Of a stretch of DNA of 64,000 nucleotides, positions 35,772 through 47,810 are shown piece by piece (position 1 is the stretch's first letter; every line of letters begins with the position of its first letter). The translations under genes and the position numbers were made by a program. The notes under the pieces are model-generated. The model was not told the DNA's origin. It saw nothing but the letters and a program-made list of their open reading frames with translations, and made no database searches. Source of the stretch: an uncultured Acidobacteriota bacterium (GTDB taxonomy: Bacteria > Actinomycetota > Acidimicrobiia > Spongiisociales > ZC4RG35); the NCBI GenBank assembly GCA_963828465.1, contig CAWHEU010000022.1, positions 384,001 through 448,000 of the forward strand, in the 5' to 3' direction.

Positions 35772-36895
35772 ACGAAGAACTCAGCAAGGTCGTCGCCGCC
35801 CTGGTCAAGAGGGGCAAGCATCGTGGCTTTCTCACGATGGCAGAAGTCCAGCAAGAGCTGGAGGATGCCGAGGCGTCCGGAGAGGCATTCGAGGAAGTCG
35901 CTGACGCCCTCCGCTCCCAGGGAATCAAGCTCACGGAGGAGGGGCCGGGAGTCACAGAGGAGTTCGTCGAGGTCGGCCAGATTTCGGTCTCGGACCCGGT
36001 GCGCCTCTATCTCAACGAGATCGGTAGGTATCCCCTTCTCACCAGCCAGCAGGAAGTGGAGCTGGCGATGCACATGGAGGCGGGACATCGGGCGCAGGCC
36101 CGCCTCGACGAGGAGGGGCTGATCGATGAGGACCGGGCTGTCCTCGGGCATGAGATAGACATCGGCGACGCAGCCCAGAAGCAGCTCGTTCAGTCCAATC
36201 TTCGCCTGGTCGTGGCATTGGCCCGACGCTACGTCGGGCGCGGGATGGCCTTGCTCGACCTGATCCAGGAGGGCAACGTCGGTCTGATGCGTGCCGTGGA
36301 GCGGTTCGACTATCGAAGGGGCTTCAAGTTCTCCACCTACGCCACCTGGTGGATCCGTCAGGCGATCTCCAGGGCAATCGCCGATCAGGGCCGGACAATC
36401 CGTATGCCGATCCACGTCCTCGATTCGGTCAACAAGCTGACCCGGGCTCAGCGGGAGATGACCCAGACGATGGGACGTAAACCCACTCTCGACGAGCTGG
36501 CCTTTGAGCTCGACATCGAACCCGCTCGGGTCGCGGAGCTGCAGCGAATCGCCCAGGATACGGTCTCCCTGGAGACGCCGGTTGGCGAGGACGACGACGG
36601 CACTCTCGGTGACCTCGTCGAAGATCTCGAGTCAGATCGCCCAGCGGATGTCGCCACCTTCTCGTCTTTGCAGGATCAACTGGCCATGGCCCTGGAGGGT
36701 CTGAACGAGCGGGAGCGTGAGGTCTTGATCATGCGGTTCGGCCTGGCCGATGGGCGGATGCGCACCCTCGAGGAGGTCGGGTCCCATTTCAAGGTGACCC
36801 GTGAGCGGATCCGACAGCTGGAGACCAAGGCATTGGCCAAGCTCCGGCACCCCGACAAGTCACAGAAGCTGGAGGGGTTCCTGGAGAACTCCTGA
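35768..36895 (+). CDS. rpoD: Primary (group 1) sigma-70 factor
   Basis: Region 1.1, [43 protein letters not shown]. Confidence 0.92.
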
Positions 36896-36936
36896 TCGGC
36901 CGGGCACGTGGGTGCCCGTCGTGGCAATATCGGGCC

Positions 36937-37182
36937 ATGAGATTTAGATCCGGACTCGTGGTCGGCGCAGCCTTCGGGTATGTCTTGGGAACCCGTGCTG
37001 GGCGGCAGCGGTACGACCAGATCAAGCACTGGGCCGGTGAGGCGAGGAAACACCCTGCGGTGGCCCAACTGGCGAACCAGACCGTAGGCGCGGTCGATGC
37101 GGGACGCTATGTCGCCGCCACCGGGCTCACGTCGGTAGCCAAGGGGCTTCGCACGGTCGACACTCACTCAAGCTCTGAGTAG
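36937..37182 (+). CDS. Small actinobacterial membrane-anchored protein (YtxH-like N-terminus)
   Basis: GLVVGAAFGYVLGTRAGRQRYDQI pattern. Confidence 0.65.
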   Translation: MRFRSGLVVGAAFGYVLGTRAGRQRYDQIKHWAGEARKHPAVAQLANQTVGAVDAGRYVAATGLTSVAKGLRTVDTHSSSE

Positions 37183-37225
37183 ACAGAAGCCGACTGGTAC
37201 CCTGACCCCTGCCAGTCGGCAACCT

Positions 37226-37298
37226 TCCGCGGTAGCTCAATTGGTAGAGCAGTGGACTGTTAATCCATTGGTTGTAGGTTCGAGTCCTACCCGCGGAG
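37226..37298 (+). tRNA. tRNA-Asn(GTT); CCA not encoded
   Basis: TCCGCGG acceptor pairs with CCGCGGA; D arm tagctcaattggtagagc; anticodon loop ctGTTaa; T arm gtaggTTCGAGTcctac. Confidence 0.97.
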
Positions 37299-37538
37299 CA
37301 GCGACACCGACAATCCCTGGTTATACAAGGTGATTTCGGTAATCCCGCCTCCTTCCATGTTGCCCCACGTCGGAAAACTGGGCTGGGGGGCCCATTCCTG
37401 AGACCGCAAGCCGGGCTCGCCGTGGACAGGAAATTCAAAGAACTGGTCGTACGCGACCTCTGGCGATAGCTTTCATCGGTTAGCAACATTGGAAGGCTTG
37501 CCCTGGTTCAAGATCGGACCGTCGTCGAAGGATTCACC

Positions 37539-37970
37539 GTGTTCGTTCTCGGCAACGAACGGCGGCTCCGCCACGCTCTGAGCGCAACCCTGGGGTTGGA
37601 GACCGGCCGTGAAGCGGCAGCCGAAGCCCTGGCTTATGGCTGGGAGCATTGGGAACGGATCAGGGAAATGGAGAATTCGATCGGTTACCTCTATGTGGTG
37701 GGGCGAGACCGGGGGCGGAAGATGAGCCGCAACCGCCGAGTCGTCTTCCCGGATGTCATCGAGGATCGCACCCCGTGGGTGGAACCGGGACTGCCCCGAG
37801 CCTTGGCCGCCCTACCTGAGAGGGAGCGAGTGGTGGTTCTTCTGGTTCATGCTTATGGATGGGCGATGAGTGAGGTGGCCGAACTGCTCGAAGTCACCAA
37901 GAGCACGGTGCAGACCCACTCTGAAAGAGGCGTCAGGAAGCTCCGTCGCAAGTTAGGGGTGAGCCTGTGA
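37539..37970 (+). CDS. Small ECF-type sigma-70 factor (copy 1); true start probably about 40 nt upstream
   Basis: GREAAAEALAYGWEHWERI..GYLY (region 2); ALAALPERERVVVLL..EVAELLEVTKSTVQTHSERG (region 4.2). The frame stays open upstream (LVQDRTVVEGFT). Confidence 0.85.
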   Translation: MFVLGNERRLRHALSATLGLETGREAAAEALAYGWEHWERIREMENSIGYLYVVGRDRGRKMSRNRRVVFPDVIEDRTPWVEPGLPRALAALPERERVVVLLVHAYGWAMSEVAELLEVTKSTVQTHSERGVRKLRRKLGVSL

Positions 37971-39115
37971 GCCGAGACATTCTGAGTCAGATCCGGGATT
38001 ACGGGTCGCAGATCGACGACGGCCAAGCCCCACTCACTGTGTCTGAAGTCATCGACCGGGCGAGTGTGGTGCAGACCATCCCTCAGGACCCGCGTGGCAT
38101 CCACCCCCGACGAACGAGACGTGGACTCAAAGCGTTCGCCTTTGCAGCCGGCCTCGTCGTCATGGTGGCGCTCACCATCGTCCTCGGCGCCACCCGCACA
38201 GATGTTCCGCCTGCGGTCACCACAATCCCTACGCCGACGACAACGCCGGTCATACCACCGACCACGGTCTCCGCGCCGGAGCCCGACCCGACGCCTTTGG
38301 TCAAGTGGCCCCAGTCGAGTCTGGAGGAGGTGCGGGAGGCACAGGAGCTCGCCGATGCTGGAGACCCCAACTACACGTGGCAGCTCGAACCGAACATGGC
38401 ATCGATCTTGATGGGCACGGAGCAGGTCGATACTCCCGAGATCCTCGCCCGATTGCTCCGGGAGGAGCTCGGTTGGGAGGAATTCGCCCTGGTCGCGATA
38501 CCAGGTAACGCCGCCGAGTCCGGGGGCATCCGGGCGGAGGGGCTCCAGTTCATCCGGTGTGAGCCGGGGAAGAGCAATCCCATCTGGCCGGATGATCCCC
38601 GGTTCGGCGGATGCGCACCAACCATCGACGACTTCCACTACGAGAGGGTGGAGATCTACGTGGCGCAGCCCGGCAAGCGGGGCCCGGAAGGGATCTGGGT
38701 GGCTTCCATGTGGGGGGAGGTCGATCCATTCGAGCAGGTCGCCCCACTCACCGACGCCGAGATCGCGGCGATCATGGAGCCCTTCCTCCAGGCAAGGATC
38801 GCCGGTGAGGGAGCCGAGCAGTATCTGGGCGATCTAAGCGCCGGGGACTGGCTAAGCAGCGGGTGGTTGGCGCCCGGGTTCCTGTATGCCACCAGCACCG
38901 GTGCCCCCTATGAGCGAGCCGAGTTCGAGGTCGTCAATGGGGGGGAATGGCCGGGTGGCTCGATGACCGTAAAGGTTCGGCTGTTCGCCGACGGGGGCCA
39001 GACCGTGGTGGAGCAGACCTTCTCGTTGTGGCGGGACGTGGCGGGCCGCTGGCCGCTCTATCACCACCAGGATGACCAGAGCACCGAGAACGGGCAGCCC
39101 CTGCCCAAGACCTGA
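37967..39115 (+). CDS. Single-pass membrane protein, putative anti-sigma/sensor 1
   Basis: Overlaps the sigma stop (GTGA); short cytoplasmic N-terminus, basic patch, TM helix, Thr/Pro linker, extracytoplasmic domain paralogous to 40291-41946. Confidence 0.75.
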   Translation: MSRDILSQIRDYGSQIDDGQAPLTVSEVIDRASVVQTIPQDPRGIHPRRTRRGLKAFAFAAGLVVMVALTIVLGATRTDVPPAVTTIPTPTTTPVIPPTTVSAPEPDPTPLVKWPQSSLEEVREAQELADAGDPNYTWQLEPNMASILMGTEQVDTPEILARLLREELGWEEFALVAIPGNAAESGGIRAEGLQFIRCEPGKSNPIWPDDPRFGGCAPTIDDFHYERVEIYVAQPGKRGPEGIWVASMWGEVDPFEQVAPLTDAEIAAIMEPFLQARIAGEGAEQYLGDLSAGDWLSSGWLAPGFLYATSTGAPYERAEFEVVNGGEWPGGSMTVKVRLFADGGQTVVEQTFSLWRDVAGRWPLYHHQDDQSTENGQPLPKT

Positions 39116-39196
39116 GGGACGGCGATGGGATCGATGGAAGGGGCCGGGATCAGGTCAGGATCGCGTCTTGGGTTTGGCCCTGGTGGTCGCGCTGAT

Positions 39197-39375
39197 GCAC
39201 TTCGCGTGTAGCCATTTGTGTAGCCGTACGTAGCAGGACAGGACAACACCAGACAACACGACTGGTGGAAATTCCCAGACAGGACAGCACCAAACATCAC
39301 GCACTAGGACTGGACGGACGGGGTGGGCGGGACTGTTAATCCATTGGTTGTAGGTTCGAGTCCTACCCGCGGAGC
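39197..39375 (+). repeat. att-like repeat copy A: 133-bp arm region plus 46-bp tRNA-Asn 3' end
   Basis: Core identical to 37254-37299; arm aligns without gaps to 45802-45934 with 14 mismatches by hand count. Confidence 0.92.
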
Positions 39376-39818
39376 CCAAATTCTTCCGCTCATTGTTGGC
39401 ATTCTTGGTTGTGGCCAGGGGCGAACAAGTGTTCACGTGTAGCCATTCTGTAGAGCAGAGGGGACCGAACCCACGAGGTGTGGTTCGCCACCGACTACTG
39501 CCGAACCCGACGAATCGACGCCATGACCGTCGCTGAGCCTGTCCAGGACTACCTGACCCGGGTGGGCGATGAGCGGCAACCGCCGACTCTGCCGTAACCC
39601 CAACCACCGGCCCAAGAGCCCGATACCCCGCCCGCGGATCCCGTCTGGCGCTATGGAGATTTTGCGAAATACGGGCCCCTGGAGTTTGGCCCGAAGACAG
39701 CCACATCTCCCTACCCGCCAGCGGGTCGGAGTTCCAGCTGCGATGAGGCTCAGGGCAGAAGCGTCGATTCAAAATGCTTGTGGTGTAAACCTCTCAGTCG
39801 GTGTCTTATGACAGTGAC

Positions 39819-40301
39819 ATGGTGAGGCCTGCTCTTTCCGAGGTGGTTGTCGGCCCAGGCTTTGTTGCGTTCGTCCGAGAGGTCGAACCCAAGCTCCGCC
39901 GAGCGCTTGTCGCCGGTTTTGGCATCGACATTGGGCGGGAGGCCACCGCTGAGGCGCTGGCTTATGGGTGGGAGCACTGGGAGAGGGTGCGTCATCTGGA
40001 GAATCCGGCTGGCTACCTGTATCGGGTCGGTCAGAGCTGGGCGAGACGGCGACCACTGCGTCGTGTCCTGTTTCCGGACTCGCCTGCCAGTAATGAGCCA
40101 TGGTTCGAGCCTGGTTTGGGCCCGGCATTGCGGGCCCTGAGTGCGAGGCAGCGACAAGCGGTGATCCTGGTCCACGCGATGGGTCTGAGCCAGGCGGAGA
40201 CCGCCGCGATGCTCGGACTGAAGCCGACTTCTGTTCAGAACCACCTGCAGCGGGGCCTCTCGCGGCTTCGTATAGCCCTGGGGGTTGACGATGAGACTTG
40301 A
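39819..40301 (+). CDS. Small ECF-type sigma-70 factor (copy 2)
   Basis: EPKLRRALVAGFG..GREATAEALAYGWEHWERV..NPAGYLYRVG..ALRALSARQRQAVILVH..SVQNHLQRGL. Confidence 0.88.
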   Translation: MVRPALSEVVVGPGFVAFVREVEPKLRRALVAGFGIDIGREATAEALAYGWEHWERVRHLENPAGYLYRVGQSWARRRPLRRVLFPDSPASNEPWFEPGLGPALRALSARQRQAVILVHAMGLSQAETAAMLGLKPTSVQNHLQRGLSRLRIALGVDDET

Positions 40302-41946
40302 AACACGACTCCTCGACTACGTCGATGAGATGGCACCGCCGGTCACCACCGAGGAGGCGATTGCTCGAAGTGAGTCGCCGAACCGTTTATGGGTGCGCGT
40401 GGCTTCCGCTACCAAGACCGAGGAGTCAGCGAAGACCCAGACCCCTGGCCCGAGGCGAGGCCTTGTCTGGGCGGTAGTGGTATTCGTGGTCATCCTCGCC
40501 GTGGGCGGGTTGTATTCCGCCTTCAGTGGCGATGACAGCCAGGTGGTCGATCAAACCACCGTCCCCACCCCGACCACGGTCCCCACAAGCGTATTGGACT
40601 CCATGTGGCCGCAGTCGAGTCTGGAGGAGGTGGAGGAGGCCCAAGAGCTCGCCGACGCTGGCGATCCCGATTTCACTTGGCAGCTCGATGCGACGCTGGC
40701 CGCCGGTGGCGATCCATGGGGAGCGGAGATATTCGCCCGGTTTATCGAAGATGAACTCGGCTGGGAGGCCTGGGAGGCCGCTGCTTTCGATGGATGGTTG
40801 GGCGGTGATGGGGGAGGCTACGAGCAGGTCCTCTTCATCCGTTGCGCGCCCGGCGAGACCAACCCATTGAGCCCGGTGTACTCGGAGGCGCCACCCGAGA
40901 TCGGCCAGTGTGCGCCGACGATCGACGAGCTCAGCTACGAGACGGTGGGTATCAGTGTGTCCCAGCCCGGCCTTCGGGGTCGTTCGGGCCTTTGGGTGGT
41001 GACTGGGTGGGAGACTCTCCAGCCCAAGTCCCCTGAGGCTCTCTGGGAACTCCTCACCCCAGACCTCTTGGCCGGGAGGCAGGTCGAGCAGGTCGTCCCG
41101 CCATCCGACACTGAATTAGCCGCTCTCCTGGACGGGTTCCTACAAGCCCGGGTGGACGGTGCAGGGGCCGAGCAGTATCTGCTCCACGAGCCAGAGGAGT
41201 GGATCTTTGAGGATGTGCCGCTCCTGTACGCCACGACCAGCGGCGCACCCTTTGAGCGCTTCGAGATCTTTCGGGTAAATGGCCCGCGCTGGCCGACCGG
41301 AAGGATTCTGGTCAGGGTACGGCTGTTCGCCGAGGGTGGGACCGTGGTCGAGCAGTTGTTCCATGTGGTCCGCAGTGATGGACACCTCGGCCTCGTGTAC
41401 GGATACTTCGACGACGTACTCCAGAGCACCGAAAACGGGCAGTCCGTGAACATCATCCTCGATGGCGAGGTGACCTTCGCCACGGCCCCCCCATGGAGAA
41501 GGTCAGTGATTGACCCTTCCGACGCTTCCGACACTTACATGAGATTTCAGGCGGGGAGAGAGGAATTCGTCGCGATCGGGACGGATCCCCCACCGGCCGC
41601 GGGGGACTGTGAGAACCCCTTGGCTCCTGCAGATGCCGAGGCGCTGGCTCGGAGCATCATGGCCAACCCCGACTTCGAGACCAACGGGACCGTCCCGGTG
41701 CGCATCGCGGGTCTCGACGGGCTGCAGATGGATGTGGGCATTAACCGCAACGTGCACTCCTGCTGGTTTCGGGGGTTCGGACCAGATCAACTCGCTCAGT
41801 GGCGGACGCGCCTGTACATGCTCGACTACCCCGGCGATTCGGCGCAGATCCTGATCATCGCGGTCATCGCCCCGGCGATCGACTTGGAGCGCGTGATCGA
41901 GGAGGCGACACCCATCGTGGAGTCCCTCGAGATCAATGCCCCCTGA
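40291..41946 (+). CDS. Single-pass membrane protein, putative anti-sigma/sensor 2 (partner-1 domain plus an extra C-terminal domain)
   Basis: Overlaps the sigma; shares WPQSSLEEV.EAQELADAGDP, FIRC.PG, CAPTID, FLQAR..G.GAEQYL and QSTENGQ with partner 1. Confidence 0.75.
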   Translation: MRLETRLLDYVDEMAPPVTTEEAIARSESPNRLWVRVASATKTEESAKTQTPGPRRGLVWAVVVFVVILAVGGLYSAFSGDDSQVVDQTTVPTPTTVPTSVLDSMWPQSSLEEVEEAQELADAGDPDFTWQLDATLAAGGDPWGAEIFARFIEDELGWEAWEAAAFDGWLGGDGGGYEQVLFIRCAPGETNPLSPVYSEAPPEIGQCAPTIDELSYETVGISVSQPGLRGRSGLWVVTGWETLQPKSPEALWELLTPDLLAGRQVEQVVPPSDTELAALLDGFLQARVDGAGAEQYLLHEPEEWIFEDVPLLYATTSGAPFERFEIFRVNGPRWPTGRILVRVRLFAEGGTVVEQLFHVVRSDGHLGLVYGYFDDVLQSTENGQSVNIILDGEVTFATAPPWRRSVIDPSDASDTYMRFQAGREEFVAIGTDPPPAAGDCENPLAPADAEALARSIMANPDFETNGTVPVRIAGLDGLQMDVGINRNVHSCWFRGFGPDQLAQWRTRLYMLDYPGDSAQILIIAVIAPAIDLERVIEEATPIVESLEINAP

Positions 41947-41967
41947 AGACGACGGAATGGAGAGGAC

Positions 41968-43209
41968 ATGAAGACACGGGCTGAATGGATTCTCGTTGTA
42001 GGGCTGATGCTTGGGCTCGTCGCCTGTGGATCTGATGCGAGCCCGGTATCAACCCGCTCCACGACAACGACCCCAAACACGTCATCGACATCGGGCCCAA
42101 CCACATCATCGACGACGGTCCCAACCACGGTTCCGACGACGCAGACATCGACTGTGCCGATTGAGCCTTTCCCAACTGCGGCGTTTGCAGCGATCAGCGA
42201 TGACCCCGTCGCAGAGGATGTTGCAGCGAAGTTCCTGGCGGCTCTGGATGGCATGGCCCCGGAAGGGGGGATCGCAGCCACCGTGATGACGCCCGAGGGA
42301 ACCTGGAGTGGGGCGGCGGGCACCGCCGACGGCGTGCACGATCTCGAGATCGACAGCCAGTTCGGCATCGCGAGCGGCACAAAGCCGATCATCGCGGCCC
42401 AGGTCATGCTGCTCGTGGAGGCGGGGGAGGTCTTGCTCGACGCACCCGCCACCGACTACCTCCCTGCCGATTTCACCTTCGACACCAACGGAGCAACGAT
42501 CCGCCAGCTCCTGAGTCATCGCTCCGGAATCCCGGACTGGTACGACGCGGAGAGCTTCGCGGTGGACAGGAGTCGGGTCTGGGAGCTCGACGAGATCCTC
42601 GCGCTTGTTCCGGCGGCTCGCCGTCCCGTCGGCTCCTTTGAATACGCCGACACCAACTACAACCTGCTCGGGCTCGTCATCGAGCACGTTCGCCAGCGAC
42701 CGCTAACCGACGTCCTGCGCGATGTAGTCCTTCGTGTCGAAGGGACGGAGCGGCTCATCTACCAGCCCGACGAGGCACCAACCGACCCGATGGCCATGCC
42801 GCGGGGCGAGTCGCGCGACGCGCTCAAGCAGGGCGGCGGCTACCTGCCATCTATCTCGGATACGATCGACGGAGCTGCGGGCGCCATGGCGTCAGATTCG
42901 ATCTCGCTCGCACGCTGGTGGCGGGCGTTCTGCGCCGGTGACATCGTTTCGGAAGCCTCGCTGACCGAGATGGCGGCGTTCTACGACAACGTCGCGTCCG
43001 AGTTGCCGGTCGATTATGGGCTCGGGCTGTTCAATCCCGCGGAGCTAGCGTCCGTCAAGGCCGTGGGGCACCTCGGTGCGAATTTCGGCTACAAGTCGTC
43101 GGCCGGGTGCCTGACCGAGGACCCCCTGATCTTCGTCGTGCTGACAAATCAGGACCTCAACAGCTTCGCTCTAGCCACTCCGCTGCTCATGGCGGCGCGC
43201 TCGGAGTGA
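41968..43209 (+). CDS. Serine beta-lactamase-like / D-alanyl carboxypeptidase (S12) family lipoprotein
   Basis: RBS ggagagg, lipobox GLVAC, Thr-rich linker, FGIASGTK (SxxK), TIRQLLSHRSG, FEYADTNY, GHLG. Confidence 0.85.
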   Translation: MKTRAEWILVVGLMLGLVACGSDASPVSTRSTTTTPNTSSTSGPTTSSTTVPTTVPTTQTSTVPIEPFPTAAFAAISDDPVAEDVAAKFLAALDGMAPEGGIAATVMTPEGTWSGAAGTADGVHDLEIDSQFGIASGTKPIIAAQVMLLVEAGEVLLDAPATDYLPADFTFDTNGATIRQLLSHRSGIPDWYDAESFAVDRSRVWELDEILALVPAARRPVGSFEYADTNYNLLGLVIEHVRQRPLTDVLRDVVLRVEGTERLIYQPDEAPTDPMAMPRGESRDALKQGGGYLPSISDTIDGAAGAMASDSISLARWWRAFCAGDIVSEASLTEMAAFYDNVASELPVDYGLGLFNPAELASVKAVGHLGANFGYKSSAGCLTEDPLIFVVLTNQDLNSFALATPLLMAARSE

Positions 43210-43367
43210 CCTGTAAACGACGTCCGCGAGCCATCATCCGCCGCGTGACTGTCCGATCCCGCCTCGACTCGGCGAGCGGGAACGCTGGTCGAAAAATGAC
43301 ACAACACCGATGGACAAGTCTCATCACGGTTTCCACCAAAACGACACATTGCGGGCCCGCCAATCGT

Positions 43368-43550
43368 TCAGTTGATGGAGCGTCGGGCGTCGGCGAGGAG
43401 ACGCCGGTAGACGACGTCGGAGATGCGCCGTTTCAGCGCCCGGATCGCTTCTTTGCTGGTCTTTCCCTCGGCGAGCTTCTTTGGTGGTAGTCCCGGCCTT
43501 CGCCGGGGTAGCGGAGCTGGGTGACTGCGGCGATGTGGTGGGCGTGATCG
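43368..43550 (-). pseudogene. IS110-family transposase C-terminal relic
   Basis: Two joined frames give HAHHIAAVTQLR..GEGRDY / KKLAEGKTSKEAIRALKRRISDVVYRRL, matching the C-terminus typical of actinobacterial IS110 transposases. Confidence 0.75.
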
Positions 43551-43684
43551 ATGCAAACAGTCTGGGATTCTGACTTCGGAGCCACTTTTCGCCTCCTGGG
43601 CGGAGGTCTCGGCGATGTCTGATTAGAAAAATCGTTGTAGCGCGATTCGTGTCTTCTGGCCTTTACTTGTCTAAAGGAGCAGAT

Positions 43685-44149
43685 GTGGTGCTTGCCCGAC
43701 ATCTCGACGAATCGTTCACGGCCTTCGTGAAAGAGACCGAACCTCGGCTGCGGCTTGCGTTGGTAGCAGCATTTGGCCAGGACCGGGGCCTTGACGCCAC
43801 CGCGGATGCTTTGGCTTACGCCTTCGAGAACTGGGATCGGATTGAGAGCATGGAGAACCCTGCTGGGTATCTCTATCGGGTCGGGAGAAGTCGCGCTCGC
43901 TTCGCGGGTATCCGCCCCAGGTTTGCCCCGGTGCCCGTTGAGGACGCTCCGAATGTGGAGCCGGGTCTGCCCTCCGCACTGCGAAGACTGTCGGAAAAGC
44001 AGCGGGTCGCAGTGGTCATGGTTCACGCCTATGGGTGGTCCCGTGAGGAGACGGCTTTGTTGATGGGCTTGACGATGTCCACTGTGGACACCCATCTGCA
44101 GCGCGGCTTGTCCAAATTACGAAATGTGTTGGGGGTGACCCATGCCTGA
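43685..44149 (+). CDS. Small ECF-type sigma-70 factor (copy 3)
   Basis: RBS aaggag; EPRLRLALVAAFG..GLDATADALAYAFENWDRI..NPAGYLYRVG..LSEKQRVAVVMVH..TVDTHLQRGL. Confidence 0.88.
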   Translation: MVLARHLDESFTAFVKETEPRLRLALVAAFGQDRGLDATADALAYAFENWDRIESMENPAGYLYRVGRSRARFAGIRPRFAPVPVEDAPNVEPGLPSALRRLSEKQRVAVVMVHAYGWSREETALLMGLTMSTVDTHLQRGLSKLRNVLGVTHA

Positions 44150-45671
44150 TCTGAACACTCAGCTCCGTGAATATTTCGATGCCACCGCTCCGCCCTTGGA
44201 GGTCGAGGAGGTCGTCGGTGACGAGGTCTTGGTTCCTGGCGGGAGAAAGACGCGATCGAGGAGATGGACTGCCCCGGGCTGGGCATACGGGCTGGCAACC
44301 ATGGTGGTGGTCCTGGTGCTCATTTTGGGACTCGCCCTGCTGCTACCGGGCGGGAATAACGACGTGGTCGAGCCGACCCCGACAACGGTGGTTCCGGAGC
44401 CCGAGACCATGTCCGATTTCGAAGTGATCGAAGCTGGCGTGGCTGCCCTCTACTCCGGGGACGCCGAGCGGGCTGTCGAACTATTCGGGATCGAAGATTC
44501 CCCGGTTTGGAGATGGCAGGGCGGTGGTGATGACGAAGCTCAGATACGCGACGACGATCTGATACGCCAGGAGGCGGCCTATCAGGCGGCCATCGGCGGA
44601 CGGCTGACCCTCAATTGCACTGAACTGGTGAACACGCCCGGGATGTTCACCTGCAATGTGCCGTACCACAACGCTCTTACGGATGCAGTGGGCTACATCG
44701 ACTCCCCAGGGGACCAGATTGATGTCGTGGTCCAAGAAGGCGTGATCACCCAGTTTGCTCTTCCGAACGCCCTCGTCCAAGGGTTCGCCCACACGTTTCC
44801 TGAGCACAATTTCCTCCTGCGGACGGTGGTGTCCTTCCTCAGAGAGGAAGTCGAGGGCTCTGAAGGCTGCTGGGATTTTCCAACGGACTTCTTGCCGACC
44901 GTTATACGGACTCCCGACTGCGCCAACCTGATCATGGACAATCTCGACGACTGGGCCGCCTGGTACGAGGTGAACGAGCCGACGCCGACAACCCTGGTGA
45001 ACGAGCCGACGCCGACAACCCTGGTGAACGAGCCGACGCCGACCACGGTCCTAACAACCGTGCCCACCCCGACCACGGTCCTAACAACCGCCCCCGAAGT
45101 TGAGGCAACGTCCTCGGAAATATCGATTGCGCTCGCGTTCTTTGACGCCCGCAATGCCTACGACGTGGAGGCCGCCACAGCATTGTTCAACCCCGACGCC
45201 CACATTTACGGAGGGGACTTCATCACCGGCGTCGATATGTACCCGGCCCTCTTCGACTGGCTGCGCGCCACTGGCTGGCAGTGGATGGTTGGTGAGTGCT
45301 CTATGAAATCAGGGGACGCCAACACGGAGTGCGCCTATCACGTTGAGAACGCATGGAGTCGCGCCATTGGTATTCCGCCTGTGCCGGGTGTCATCGCCTT
45401 CGAGATCTGGGAAGGGGGGATGAGGTGGGTGCCTGATTTCGAGGTCGATCAGACCGATTTCAGTATCATGGGACGCGCCTCTGAACATCCTCAGTTCAAA
45501 AACGGTGAACTGGTCGAGGTGTGGGGGACGGTCACCGACTGGATCAGAGAAAATCACCCCACCGACGTGGAAGCGATGATCAGCCCGGACGGCTCTGCCC
45601 CAATTTTCGACGCCCGATCCATCGATCTATGGCGGATGTACACCCAAGAGTTCGTTGAGGCAGTCGGGTAG
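44142..45671 (+). CDS. Single-pass membrane protein, putative anti-sigma/sensor 3 (two extracytoplasmic domains joined by a repeat linker)
   Basis: Overlaps the sigma; LNTQLREYFDATAPPL N-terminus, TM helix; extracytoplasmic part unrelated to partners 1 and 2. Confidence 0.75.
   Translation: MPDLNTQLREYFDATAPPLEVEEVVGDEVLVPGGRKTRSRRWTAPGWAYGLATMVVVLVLILGLALLLPGGNNDVVEPTPTTVVPEPETMSDFEVIEAGVAALYSGDAERAVELFGIEDSPVWRWQGGGDDEAQIRDDDLIRQEAAYQAAIGGRLTLNCTELVNTPGMFTCNVPYHNALTDAVGYIDSPGDQIDVVVQEGVITQFALPNALVQGFAHTFPEHNFLLRTVVSFLREEVEGSEGCWDFPTDFLPTVIRTPDCANLIMDNLDDWAAWYEVNEPTPTTLVNEPTPTTLVNEPTPTTVLTTVPTPTTVLTTAPEVEATSSEISIALAFFDARNAYDVEAATALFNPDAHIYGGDFITGVDMYPALFDWLRATGWQWMVGECSMKSGDANTECAYHVENAWSRAIGIPPVPGVIAFEIWEGGMRWVPDFEVDQTDFSIMGRASEHPQFKNGELVEVWGTVTDWIRENHPTDVEAMISPDGSAPIFDARSIDLWRMYTQEFVEAVG
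44969..45090 (+). repeat. In-frame tandem repeats (about 3 x 27 bp, then about 2 x 30 bp) encoding a Pro/Thr linker
   Basis: ggtgaacgagccgacgccgacaaccct at 44969, 44996 and (partial) 45023; ccgaccacggtcctaacaaccg at 45039 and 45069. Confidence 0.9.
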
Positions 45672-45801
45672 TCATCCTCGACCCTGACTCACCGAAGGAT
45701 ATTGGGCTAAGAACGCCAGGTCAGAGCACCTCTCTCCATCTCGATTGGTAAGAACGTGTCAAGCACAGTGGCCCTCGTGGGGGCAGAGGCGCTATCTGTC
45801 C

Positions 45802-45980
45802 GCACTTCGTGTGTAGCCATTTGTGTAGCCGTACGTACCCGGACAGGACAACACCAGACAACACGACAGATCGAAATTCGTAGACAGGACAGCACCAAAC
45901 AACACGTACCGGGACTGGACAGACGAGGTGGGCGGGACTGTTAATCCATTGGTTGTAGGTTCGAGTCCTACCCGCGGAGC
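45802..45980 (+). repeat. att-like repeat copy B (probable terminal attR): 133-bp arm region plus 46-bp tRNA-Asn 3' end
   Basis: Same core and arm as 39197-39375; followed by a hairpin at 45983-46004. Confidence 0.92.
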
Positions 45981-46028
45981 CGGGATGCGCGACCTGGTGC
46001 ATCCAAGAGGCCTCCCGCTAGACCGGGG

Positions 46029-46283
46029 GTGAACATGACAGAGACATTGGAACATAGAGACAAGGTCCAGCGCAGTTTGGAGGACATCCATAGGTCGCTG
46101 GTGGCGGTATCGATGAAGCTGGCACAGCTTCAACTCGATGATGAAATCGACACCGAGCTGGGTAACGCCCTGGAGGAACAAATGACGGCCCTGGCACCGC
46201 TCACAGACCGCCTCGAGAGTCTCGAATCCGAATTTCAGATGGAGACCAACCGCCTGACAAACGAGGGAGAACTCCAGGGTTGA
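46029..46283 (+). CDS. Small acidic helical/coiled-coil hypothetical protein
   Basis: Heptad-like pattern, plausible RBS ggggg; no family recognised. Confidence 0.55.
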   Translation: MNMTETLEHRDKVQRSLEDIHRSLVAVSMKLAQLQLDDEIDTELGNALEEQMTALAPLTDRLESLESEFQMETNRLTNEGELQG

Positions 46284-46456
46284 GGGTGTTTAGTTCGGCT
46301 CGCTCGCGGTAGTCCTTCACGCCCGACTGCATCCATCGGGCGGACACGCCCGGTCGGCCTTCCTCCACCCGCTTCGAGAGTACGCAAGAAGATTCCACGT
46401 TTCGCGTCGGCAAACAGTGGGAATAGTGAGGCGGACCCCGGATTCGAAGAGCGCTG

Positions 46457-46789
46457 ATGACCACAGTTGACGACAGATATGACCTGACCGTCATCTCGAC
46501 GACGCCGTATCACGGGACTGCAGAATTGATCGGTCGGGACGGTCGGGTTGTCGACAGGGTCGCGGCGAGTCTGTTCGCGCGTCGGCCGCCTGGGATCAGC
46601 TTGGGATCGTGGGGTGGTCAGATCCAGGCACTCGAGTTCAATGAATCCGATTGGGGCAATGCGGAAACTATCCGTCTGAGCAACGGGGTGGAAGCCAGGA
46701 TAGTTCTCGAGCGAGAGACGAATCACCCGACCGATGTGGGCCTACACCGCACCGGAACACTCGTCGGTTTGGGGTCCCCGCCTTTCTAA
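46457..46789 (+). CDS. Hypothetical protein, possibly DUF4873-like
   Basis: YHGTAEL..DG near the N-terminus, SWGG, and C-terminal GLGSPPF resemble DUF4873 as recalled; not verified. Confidence 0.5.
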   Translation: MTTVDDRYDLTVISTTPYHGTAELIGRDGRVVDRVAASLFARRPPGISLGSWGGQIQALEFNESDWGNAETIRLSNGVEARIVLERETNHPTDVGLHRTGTLVGLGSPPF

Positions 46790-46989
46790 GGCCGTCGATT
46801 CCCGGCGATTCGGCTTCTTCTGCACGCGCGGGGCAACGGGTCGCGAAAATCGACGTTGTCCGACGACTCAATTTCGACCGCCAACGCGACGATGACTCCT
46901 TTTAGAGGTGGGGGTTTGGGCATTTCAGACGGCGTTGGCGTCTGCTCGGTTCACCCTCCCGAATGATCTTCGGTAAAGAGGTTGGATCG

Positions 46990-47184
46990 ATGACCCTGAT
47001 GCACATGGCCCTGGGAGCCTTGACTTCCATCTTCGGAGCGCACCTGTCATGGGCCGTGACCGACCTGATAATCAAGCGAAAGCGTGAAGGGCGCAGCGTC
47101 GTCCTGCCGACCCTCCTCTCCGTGGCCGGCGTGATCGTGATCGTGGTGACCTGCGGCGTCGTCCTGTCGTCCACCCCCGTCTGA
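46990..47184 (+). CDS. Small two-TM membrane protein
   Basis: RBS gagg; two hydrophobic stretches flanking KRKREGR. Confidence 0.5.
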   Translation: MTLMHMALGALTSIFGAHLSWAVTDLIIKRKREGRSVVLPTLLSVAGVIVIVVTCGVVLSSTPV

Positions 47185-47216
47185 ATCAAGTCGCGAAAAT
47201 TACCCCCGGTTCTGGT

Positions 47217-47305
47217 TTGACCGCTCGATCAGGTTGGGTATAGTTCCGATCTGAAGCCCCGACGGGTCGAAACTTCGGTTACGACTTGTTGGGGCTTCTT
47301 AAATT
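47217..47305 (+). repeat. Promoter-plus-hairpin unit, copy 1 (candidate small RNA or attenuator)
   Basis: TTGACC-16 nt-TATAGT, then the aagccccgacgggtcgaaac-TTCG-gttacgacttgttggggctt hairpin and cttaaatt. Confidence 0.7.
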
Positions 47306-47720
47306 GCGGACACCGATCTGATGGATGCCGGTGAGGGTGGCCGCAATCTCCGACGCCGATAGAGGGCTCGTCGCATGGTGCGCCGACTTCGAACTCTGCG
47401 CCTCGATTCCCTGAAGCCGGGATCGATGACCCAGCGATCGAGGCCACCAGAAGGACCAGGCATCTCGAACTCAAATTACGAGCCGCTGGTAAACCGACTC
47501 CCTCGTCTGGGTAACGCGCCCATGAAATGAATGTGAAGCTCGGGTGCGCCCAGGACGCTCCGGGGTCCTTCGAGCGTGGTGTGGACCCCGGTCGCGTCCT
47601 GTCTCAGCAAGGCGGGAGGAGTTGCCTTGGATCAGGAGGGTGGTCCGACGACATGACAGCGAGGTTTCCGCCTGCCAGCAAACACGTGAAGATCGCCCGC
47701 AAAATCATCTCAATCCCGGT

Positions 47721-47810
47721 TTGACGCCCTGATGAGTTTGGGTAAAGTTCCGACCTGAAGCCCCGACGGGTCGAAACTTCGGTTGCGACTTGTTGGGGCT
47801 TCTTATTTGT
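47721..47810 (+). repeat. Promoter-plus-hairpin unit, copy 2
   Basis: TTGACG-16 nt-TAAAGT, then the same hairpin with one substitution and cttatttgt. Confidence 0.7.

What the first reader, a model, noticed from the sequence alone, without database searches (positions are those of the whole stretch)
37226..46004. tRNA-Asn-anchored tandem cassette array with no integrase, carrying ECF sigma/sensor modules
Seen: the 46-bp 3' end of tRNA-Asn occurs three times (37254, 39330, 45935). The two downstream copies are each preceded by the same 133-bp non-coding arm (ungapped, 14 mismatches). The enclosed units (about 2.1 and 6.6 kb) contain no integrase, relaxase or phage gene. They carry three paralogous sigma + membrane-partner pairs, a serine-hydrolase lipoprotein and an IS110 relic. 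Known: tyrosine integrases target tRNA 3' ends, and tandem integration leaves attP-like junctions. Inference: these are non-autonomous mini-elements mobilised in trans that stack signal-transduction cassettes at one locus, functionally like an integron for sensing modules. This is my best candidate for an undescribed system here.
Basis: partly seen in the sequence, partly recalled or inferred. Interest (0 to 1): 0.85.

Follow-up and report, generated by a model that had tools for sequence, protein, structure and literature searches.

The report
Integrase-less gene cassettes stacked at tRNA-Asn
Two small gene units with no integrase of their own sit in tandem behind the only tRNA-Asn gene, each ending in the same attachment-site arm, and related soil bacteria carry different units of this family at the same spot.

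Summary
tRNA-Asn (37226-37299) is followed by two exact copies of its last 46 bp (39330-39375, 45935-45980). Each copy is preceded by the same 133-bp arm with 14 mismatches. The enclosed units (2,076 and 6,605 bp) hold three SigE-like sigma/membrane-partner pairs and a beta-lactamase-fold lipoprotein. They hold no recombinase, and the "IS110 relic" was not found.

Twelve of 31 genomes of the genus carry the same arm, and one genome has an empty site. The 26 complete units with this arm are 0.9-6.6 kb, have diverse cargo, and none has a tyrosine-recombinase-like frame. The arm looks like a lambda-type attP: paired TGTAGCC sites at its outer edge, two 27-nt repeats, and a TGTAGCC site 59-76 nt beyond the core in 17 of 73 sites.

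Tyrosine integrases and two phage attP sites use this same tRNA core in relatives, but with other arms. This genome has only two Xer-like recombinases. It also has similar integrase-less arrays at tRNA-Arg genes.

Best reading: these are tandem, integrase-less satellite units, like cis-mobilizable elements (CIMEs), made by site-specific insertion. Any present mobility would need an integrase supplied in trans, and none was identified. Close precedents exist (CIMEs, Dehalococcoides ssrA islands). I rate it a new variant of a known kind, of moderate interest.

The parts
37226..37299 (+). tRNA-Asn (GTT). It is the single Asn tRNA of the assembly and the anchor (attB/attL side) of the array.
   Evidence: ARAGORN; Rfam RF00005, 75.4 bits; only Asn tRNA of 49 tRNAs.
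37254..37299 (+). Core copy 1: the 46 bp from the anticodon stem to the 3' end, inside the intact tRNA.
37539..37970 (+). sig1, a SigE-like ECF-type sigma of 143 aa. It is about 20 aa shorter at the N-terminus than its paralogues, with an in-frame stop upstream.
   Evidence: Sigma70_r4_2 E 1.6e-11; TIGR02983 59 bits, below its cut-off.
37967..39115 (+). par1, a membrane partner of 382 aa: short cytoplasmic head, one TM segment, Pro/Thr linker and an outer domain of no known family.
39197..39329 (+). Arm copy 1, read as the P arm. It has paired TGTAGCC sites, two ~27-nt GACAGGACA...CACG repeats, and GGACTGGACGGACGG.GTGGGCG next to the core.
39330..39375 (+). Core copy 2. Together with both arms it forms an attP-like junction between units 1 and 2.
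39376..39460 (+). P'-side arm of unit 2, with GTGTAGCC at 39437-39444 (62 nt past the core).
   Evidence: the same site at +59 to +76 in 17 of 73 cores.
39801..40301 (+). sig2, a SigE-like sigma of 166 aa.
40285..41946 (+). par2, a membrane partner of 553 aa. It belongs to a large uncharacterised family (535 relatives found, no Pfam domain).
41968..43209 (+). Beta-lactamase-fold serine hydrolase with a lipoprotein-type signal peptide.
   Evidence: PF00144 E 3.3e-39.
43649..44149 (+). sig3, a SigE-like sigma of 166 aa.
   Evidence: It is 92-96% nt identical to the copy in the G023, G030 and G004 arrays.
44142..45671 (+). par3, a membrane partner of 509 aa.
   Evidence: Its C-terminal part plus the arm is 96% identical to G023.
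45802..45934 (+). Arm copy 2 (P arm of unit 2).
45935..45980 (+). Core copy 3, the distal end of the array (attR).

Best explanation
The region is a tandem array of two integrase-less integrative units behind the genome's only tRNA-Asn gene.

How it arose (inferred). Each unit arrived, or descends from DNA that arrived, by tyrosine-integrase recombination between the tRNA and an attP on circular DNA, with the crossover in or near the anticodon loop. That process rebuilds the tRNA and leaves a displaced 46-bp tRNA end at the far side of the insert. A later arrival at the intact tRNA pushes earlier units outward and leaves attP-like junctions between units.

What the arm is (inferred). The 133-bp arm is the P arm of that attP. 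Its paired TGTAGCC sites and two 27-nt repeats are read as binding sites for an integrase arm-binding domain and for accessory proteins. A further TGTAGCC about 60-76 nt beyond the core is read as the P' site.

What the units are. They belong to a lineage-wide family of small arm-bearing units (0.9-6.6 kb) that carry one to a few accessory genes. Here the cargo is three SigE-like sigma/partner pairs and a serine hydrolase. The units never carry a recombinase.

Mobility. This genome encodes no matching integrase. The units are therefore now fixed, or can move only with an integrase supplied in trans by an incoming phage or integrative element, as CIMEs and satellites do.

Shown: the repeats; the arm architecture; the absence of recombinases; presence/absence and position changes among relatives; integrases and phage attP sites that use the same tRNA core.

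Inferred: that the arm binds an integrase; that insertion was site-specific for every unit; any present-day mobility.
For: - Exact 46-bp core three times and a 133-bp arm twice.
- The tRNA match starts inside the anticodon stem. Islander lists anticodon-centred attP sites as a common class (PMC4383910, passages read).
- The same arm plus core occurs in 12 of 31 genus genomes including this one, and in one genome of a second genus. It also occurs in 15 genome-collection stretches and 17 metagenome stretches.
- In the 53 loci scanned I counted 43 sites with this arm (near-duplicate loci included).
- In 17 aligned copies the homology starts abruptly at the TGTAGCC pair, next to unrelated cargo.
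- GTGTAGCC-N4-GTGTAGCC is almost confined to these arrays in the genus.
- The P' TGTAGCC lies at +59 to +76 in 17 of 73 cores, against a background of 0.018 per 120 nt.
- G019 has an empty site. A diverged form of its first 46 flank bases follows the distal core in G015 by my eye on the printed flanks (not aligned or scored). From base 47 on the flank recurs at 90% about 2.5 kb further out.
- The same cassette sits at different ranks. The sig3 unit is first in G004, second in G030 and third in G023.
- Cassette genes can be far closer than housekeeping genes. Against L063, sig2 is 93% and par1 90% identical, but the rpoD-like gene only 80%. Against G015, the arm is 94% identical, but rpoD-like 87% and pheA 84%.
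- 0 of 26 complete units with this arm hold a tyrosine-recombinase-like frame, against 2 of 6 units with other arms. This was phmmer with 7 integrases against 1,105 six-frame ORFs.
- A Pfam census of 55 ORFs from the 22 non-redundant units lists no recombinase among the 25 families shown, of 36 matched.
- Integrases lie directly 3' of this tRNA in G009, G022, G006 and G013, and inside the unit in G025.
- Two IMG/VR phage contigs carry the same core beside an integrase.
- The assembly has only 2 PF00589 matches, each with a counterpart in every genus genome, and 0 PF00239 matches.
Against: - No integrase that goes with this arm was found in any of the 31 genus genomes, the 15 genome-collection stretches, the 17 metagenome stretches or the viral contigs. 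The key actor is therefore hypothetical.
- Unit 1 has no P' TGTAGCC site. Unit 2 has no att remnant between the hydrolase and sig3, although sig3-par3 is a separate unit elsewhere. The units have been reshaped by other processes.
- L063 carries a chimaera of sig2, the front of par2 and the back of par1. Public contigs also show paralogue chimaeras. Homologous recombination is therefore clearly active.
- In G015, about 2.5 kb of extra DNA lies beyond the last core without its own core.
- The assembly is a metagenome bin (92% complete, 29 contigs), so a free plasmid or phage with the integrase could have been lost in binning.
- The genomes compared are relatives, so the counts are not independent.
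Confidence: 0.62

Rival explanations
1. Plain decay relics. The units are what is left of ordinary integrase-bearing islands after the integrase was deleted. They are fixed now, and differences between relatives come only from RecA-type recombination between the 180-bp arm+core repeats and between paralogous cargo genes.
For: - Integrase-bearing elements at this same tRNA exist in relatives.
- One of them (G025) has a split integrase gene (two adjacent frames).
- Chimaeric cassettes and paralogue joints show active homologous recombination.
- Unit 2 looks like two units fused without an att site.
- No integrase is present in this genome.
- The decay route is the textbook origin of CIMEs (PMC5704250).
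Against: - 0 of 26 units with this arm keep even a fragment of a recombinase gene, while 2 of 6 units with other arms do.
- The arm keeps a sharp outer edge and conserved motif blocks next to unrelated cargo in 17 aligned copies.
- The arm is more conserved than housekeeping coding genes in some pairs.
- The integrase-bearing elements seen have different arms.
Confidence: 0.25
2. Host Xer recombinases, the only tyrosine recombinases in the genome, move the units, with the arm acting like the accessory sequences of plasmid cer/psi sites.
For: - Only two recombinases are present, each with a counterpart in all 31 genus genomes.
- Islands that rely on Xer are known (PMC4383910, introduction passage).
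- The one-sided long arm resembles the layout of cer; that resemblance is recalled, not tested.
Against: - The repeated core is a tRNA end whose match starts in the anticodon stem. That is the hallmark of island and phage integrases.
- Several dedicated integrases and phage attP sites use this exact core.
- No dif-like site was sought or seen.
Confidence: 0.03
3. The arm plus tRNA end is a functional small RNA or regulatory DNA element that has been copied, not a recombination site.
For: The arm is strongly conserved for non-coding DNA. A 28-nt piece recurs at a second locus, C26:87919-87946, in the gap after an ECF sigma gene.
Against: - The arm does not fold better than shuffled sequence on either strand (z from +0.7 to +2.6).
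- Rfam finds no family other than tRNA at E <= 0.1.
- The copies always end exactly at the tRNA 3' end and bound variable DNA.
Confidence: 0.03
4. Assembly artefact: the repeats were created by misjoining.
For: The source is a metagenome-assembled genome.
Against: - The two arms differ at 14 positions.
- The same architecture appears in many independent assemblies and metagenome contigs.
- Public contigs end or branch at the core boundaries, as expected for a real repeat.
Confidence: 0.01

Closest known systems
Cis-mobilizable elements (CIMEs) and tandem accretion at tRNA genes (ICESt1/ICESt3 of Streptococcus thermophilus; reviewed in PMC5704250, passages read)
   Same: Units flanked by att sites, without integration or transfer genes. 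They sit in tandem at the 3' end of a tRNA gene, with hybrid att junctions between units. Mobility is possible only with a helper's integrase.
   Different: - CIMEs are defined as decayed ICEs or IMEs. Here no remnant of integration or transfer genes was seen in 26 units.
- These units are much smaller (0.9-6.6 kb).
- They form a family that shares a long conserved arm across many species.
- No helper is known.
Dehalococcoides ssrA genomic islands (PMC3146451, passages read)
   Same: - Multiple tandem islands behind a single-copy t(m)RNA gene, bounded by repeats of its 3' end.
- A conserved motif lies just upstream of each repeat.
- Cargo is paralogous, with regulators.
- 15 islands lack the integration module and were proposed to be cis-mobilizable.
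   Different: - There 16 islands carry a serine-recombinase module, so the enzyme is known.
- The repeat is 20 bp with a 15-bp motif. Here it is 46 bp with a 133-bp arm of lambda-attP-like layout.
- Here no unit carries the enzyme.
Tycheposon-shaped islands of Prochlorococcus (bioRxiv 10.1101/2020.12.28.424599, passages read)
   Same: tRNA-anchored variable islands built by repeated integration. Newer elements push older ones outward. Partial tRNAs are scattered through the island, and the cargo serves niche adaptation.
   Different: Tycheposons are defined by carrying their own integrase and often replication genes. Integrase-less arm-bearing units are not described in the passages I read. 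The supplements were not available to me.
Integrons
   Same: A fixed chromosomal anchor collects small promoter-proximal gene units, each ending in a conserved recombination site, and the cassettes encode no recombinase.
   Different: - There is no intI next to the anchor.
- The site is not a folded attC hairpin.
- Units hold up to six genes in either orientation.
- The anchor is a tRNA gene.

Membership tests
tRNA-integrated genomic island (tyrosine-integrase type) | Intact tRNA gene plus a displaced 3' fragment of it in the same orientation, bounding the insert. | tested here: met
tRNA-integrated genomic island (tyrosine-integrase type) | An integrase gene inside the island. | tested here: not met
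   No PF00589 or PF00239 match in the region. 0 of 26 units with this arm have a recombinase-like frame.
tRNA-integrated genomic island (tyrosine-integrase type) | Presence/absence polymorphism among relatives, with an empty site. | tested here: met
   G019 has an empty site; other genomes have 1-3 extra cores.
Cis-mobilizable element (CIME) | Retains attL and attR. | tested here: met
   Exact cores at both ends of each unit. The arm and P' site are intact at the 39197-39460 junction.
Cis-mobilizable element (CIME) | [quoted passage not shown] | tested here: inconclusive
   Such genes are absent. There is no sign that they were ever there, as no pseudogene fragments were found.
Cis-mobilizable element (CIME) | Excises or transfers together with a helper element. 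| not testable with these tools
   Only assembled contigs of public runs could be laid, and they show no decisive joints.
Integron | An intI integrase gene beside the insertion point. | tested here: not met
   The flanking genes are an rpoD-like sigma, an 81-aa ORF without a recombinase domain, and an M23 peptidase.
Integron | attC sites that fold as imperfect hairpins. | tested here: not met
   Arm folding z-scores are +0.7 to +2.6 on both strands.
ECF sigma / anti-sigma pair (cargo) | Sigma regions 2 and 4 above the family cut-offs. | tested here: inconclusive
   Region 4 is above its cut-off. Region 2 is not detected by Pfam. The SigE-family model TIGR02983 scores 59-71 bits against a cut-off of 141.55.
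ECF sigma / anti-sigma pair (cargo) | The partner carries a recognised anti-sigma domain. | tested here: not met
   No Pfam or NCBIfam family matches any of the three partners. The role is inferred from gene overlap and topology only.

The most novel reading that the evidence does not exclude
This Acidimicrobiia lineage runs a gene-capture system that works like an integron but is built from lambda-type attachment sites. Minimal cassettes consist of a ~265-bp attP plus one to a few genes and no enzyme. They are inserted, excised and exchanged at single-copy tRNA genes (Asn, Arg and others, each with its own arm family) by integrases supplied in trans from transient phages or integrative elements. 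The arrays would then be the main route by which these soil bacteria swap sensing and accessory modules.
Probability: 0.25. Interest if true: 0.8.

Novelty: new variant of a known kind. Interest (0 to 1): 0.5.

Why it matters
Island finders such as Islander accept an island, or a member of a tandem array, only if it has its own integrase (PMC4383910, passages read). Arrays like this one are therefore filtered out and under-counted.

Here a whole family of very small, enzyme-less units with a long conserved attachment arm shapes variable loci in an uncultured soil Acidimicrobiia genus. The same genome has sister arrays at tRNA-Arg genes but no island integrase at all.

If the units are still mobile in trans, they would be a compact natural "landing pad plus cassette" system. 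They would also explain how these bacteria trade sigma/sensor modules, which in this genome occur only in the array. If they are fixed, they are a clear example of how repeated integration and loss of the enzyme builds a hypervariable locus.

Tried and rejected
- IS110 relic: PF01548 and PF02371 searched over the whole assembly at E <= 1. There was no match in the finding's region.
- More decayed arm copies: nhmmer profiles of arm+core and of the arm alone found only the two known copies, other tRNAs' T-arms and the 28-nt C26 fragment.
- Structured-RNA reading of the arm: no folding signal and no Rfam family other than tRNA.
- Promoter and terminator scan of 37000-46400: counts were at shuffle level.
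- Integrase for this arm, tried six ways, all without a link to the arm:
  - PF00589 across the genus.
  - The G006 integrase across the genus. Its relatives sit beside tRNA-Thr and tRNA-Met.
  - The arm motif across the genus, the genome collection, metagenomes and viral contigs. The 2 viral hits have no tRNA core and I took them for chance.
  - A relative of the G009 integrase in viral contigs: none.
  - The integrase fragment near arms on G009:C157 is a frameshifted pseudogene. It lies next to what I took, by eye, for the end of another tRNA, and an IS30 sits in between.
  - G006 (integrase plus the beta-propeller gene) against G030 (the same gene at 99% identity, no integrase). The upstream parts share no homology, so a simple deletion series is not shown.
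- Reads: the public runs hold at most 0.34 of the sampled words and are kept only as Logan contigs. Laid on 36500-47500, they show contigs that end or branch at the cores and some paralogue chimaeras. They show no listed joint for a circle (39375 to 37300, 45980 to 39376) or for the empty site 37299/45981. One further joint was not shown. Contigs break at a 46-bp repeat, so this says nothing either way.
- Supplementary files of the papers were not consulted. Those of the tycheposon preprint may describe integrase-less remnants in more detail.

Full report
**1. The observation**

ARAGORN finds one tRNA in the window, tRNA-Asn(GTT) at 37226-37299. Rfam agrees. It is the only Asn tRNA among the 49 tRNAs of the assembly.

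Its last 46 bp recur exactly at 39330-39375 and 45935-45980. The block 39197-39376 matches 45802-45981 without gaps at 92%. The 133-nt arm alone differs at 14 positions. The units are 2,076 and 6,605 bp.

The match to the tRNA starts inside the anticodon stem. This is the common "anticodon-centred" class of island attachment sites (PMC4383910, passages read).

**2. Gene content**

- Unit 1 holds sig1 (37539-37970) and par1 (37967-39115).
- Unit 2 holds sig2 (39801-40301), par2 (40285-41946), a beta-lactamase-fold lipoprotein (41968-43209), sig3 (43649-44149) and par3 (44142-45671).

The sigmas are 51-57% identical. They hit Sigma70_r4_2, and they hit the SigE-family model below its cut-off. 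sig1 is shorter at the N-terminus, with an in-frame stop upstream.

The partners have no known domain. par2 has 535 uncharacterised relatives.

In this genome the three sigmas have no other paralogue at E <= 1e-6.

There is no IS110 signal in the region and no phage-specific hit. The assembly has two PF00589 matches, on contigs C10 and C18, each with a counterpart in every one of the 31 genus genomes. I read these as XerC/XerD, which is an inference. There is no PF00239 match.

**3. Relatives**

The order rpoD-like gene, tRNA-Asn, variable stretch, M23 peptidase, pheA-type gene is conserved.

- G019 has an empty site: one core, and about 960 bp to the peptidase gene. A diverged form of its first 46 flank bases follows the distal core in G015, by my eye on the printed flanks. 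From base 47 on, the flank recurs at 90% about 2.5 kb further out.
- The arm plus core is present in 12 of 31 genus genomes, this one included, and at 73% identity in one genome of a second genus.
- Exact-pattern scans found it in 15 stretches of the genome collection and 17 metagenome stretches.
- Over 53 loci I counted 43 sites with this arm and 32 complete units. Of these, 26 have this arm (22 after dropping three near-duplicate loci) and 6 have other arms. Units with this arm measure 905-6,605 bp, and the window's unit 2 is the largest.

The 55 ORFs of the 22 non-redundant units include:
- sigma region 4 (8 ORFs)
- guanylate cyclase (3)
- DUF4386 (3)
- single cases of aldo-keto reductase, a PEP-utilising enzyme, luciferase-like monooxygenase, a LuxR/AAA regulator, TIR_2, HNH and others

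No recombinase is among the 25 families listed, out of 36 matched. A phmmer search with seven tyrosine recombinases against all 1,105 six-frame ORFs of the 32 units hit only two units, both with other arms (G013 and G025).

**4. The arm is built like an attP arm**

In 17 aligned copies the homology begins abruptly at TGTAGCC-N5-TGTAGCC-GTACGTA. It continues through two ~27-nt repeats (GACAGGACA...CACG) and ends with GGACTGGACGGACGG.GTGGGCG at the core.

The paired motif is almost confined to these arrays in the genus. A TGTAGCC on the same strand lies 59-76 nt beyond the core in 17 of 73 cores, against a background of 0.018 per 120 nt. In the window this site is at 39437.

The junction 39197-39460 therefore has a P arm, a core and a P' site. 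The arm does not fold.

**5. Integrases do use this tRNA**

- Tyrosine integrases lie directly 3' of tRNA-Asn in G009, G022, G006 and G013, and inside the unit in G025.
- Two IMG/VR phage contigs carry the same core next to an integrase.
- All of these have other arms.
- No integrase could be tied to the arm seen in the window (see Tried and rejected).

**6. Signs of movement and of reshaping**

The sig3 unit is first in the G004 array, second in G030 and third in G023. In the window it is fused behind the hydrolase gene with no att remnant.

Cassette genes and arms can be closer than housekeeping genes:
- Against L063: sig2 93%, par1 90%, arms 88-91%, but the rpoD-like gene only 80%.
- Against G015: arm 94%, rpoD-like 87%, pheA 84%.

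L063 has a chimaeric cassette, and public contigs show paralogue chimaeras. Both site-specific and homologous recombination appear to have shaped the arrays. The first is an inference.

**7. Not only tRNA-Asn**

The same assembly has a tRNA-Arg(CCT) gene followed by four displaced ends. Three of these matched my 40-nt probe for the Arg arm, and the fourth has a variant arm by eye. Three more sites with that arm lie behind tRNA-Arg(CCG) on C26, which also has one displaced end of its own. Single displaced ends occur for tRNA-Val and tRNA-Arg(ACG).

Their cargo is of the same accessory kind. No recombinase is among the 25 families listed, out of 33 matched.

**8. Comparison and verdict**

Integrase-less units kept between att sites in tandem arrays are known as CIMEs (PMC5704250). 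An array behind ssrA, with 15 islands lacking the integration module and a conserved motif beside each repeat, is described in Dehalococcoides (PMC3146451). Tycheposon islands show the same pushing-outward logic, but with integrase-bearing elements.

Three things are unusual here:
- a whole family of very small units
- a long, sharply bounded attP-like arm
- the complete lack of any recombinase trace in 26 units and of any island integrase in the genome

My searches for an Acidimicrobiia description and for integron-like tRNA cassette arrays listed nothing that describes this. I saw only the listings.

I rate it a new variant of a known kind, interest 0.5.

Noticed in passing
G000 contigs C25:106033-115500 and C26:87900-107200 (loci L094, L095): A second, larger set of integrase-less arrays. 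tRNA-Arg(CCT) is followed by four displaced 3' ends. Three further arm-bearing Arg(CCT)-type sites lie behind tRNA-Arg(CCG) on C26, with one displaced end of that tRNA itself. Six of the seven Arg(CCT)-type sites matched my 40-nt probe for the Arg-specific arm. Cargo includes hydrolases, an MFS transporter, a histidine kinase, MarR/PadR regulators and an ECF sigma. A 28-nt piece of the Asn arm lies in the same mosaic (C26:87919-87946).
   Followed up: partly
window 47214-47301 and 47718-47805: An 88-nt repeat (90% identical, 504 nt apart) upstream of the M23 peptidase gene. It is conserved at about 82-92% in eight relatives. It has a TTGACC-16-TATAGT promoter-like start (seen by eye). This is followed by a 20-bp hairpin of -34 kcal/mol (z about -7 to -8) and a T-rich tail. 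It could be a small RNA gene or a leader. No Rfam match.
   Followed up: partly
L053 (G008:C58) 2155-2247: The tRNA-Asn end is followed after 1 nt by a second, slightly diverged 46-nt copy with no arm and no cargo. It may be a scar left by deletion of a whole unit.
   Followed up: no
L063 2481-4543; window 38258-39376 and 39743-40688: A single cassette in a distant relative is a chimaera of the window's sig2, the front of par2 and the back of par1. G030 and G004 carry a 700-aa partner that joins a par3-like front to a par2-like back. The partner genes recombine between cassettes.
   Followed up: partly
L097 and L098 (IMG/VR contigs of 36-39 kb): Two related phage contigs carry an attP with the tRNA-Asn core. 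In L098 the 380-aa tyrosine integrase ends about 390 bp from the core; in L097 the 384-aa integrase is about 920 bp away. These are likely temperate phages of this lineage that integrate at the same tRNA.
   Followed up: partly
window 45991-46288 (84-aa coiled-coil ORF at 46029-46283): The stretch just beyond the last core is shared at 92-95% with only some relatives (G012, G006, L082). In G006 it is followed by a degenerate arm+core (about 76% identical). It may be the remains of a further, older unit.
   Followed up: no
L043 (G009:C157) and L064: An IS30-family transposase gene sits next to an arm in two related genomes, with 90% protein identity between them. In G009 it is about 50 bp upstream of the arm; in L064 it is about 140 bp from an arm-type TGTAGCC pair.
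   Followed up: no
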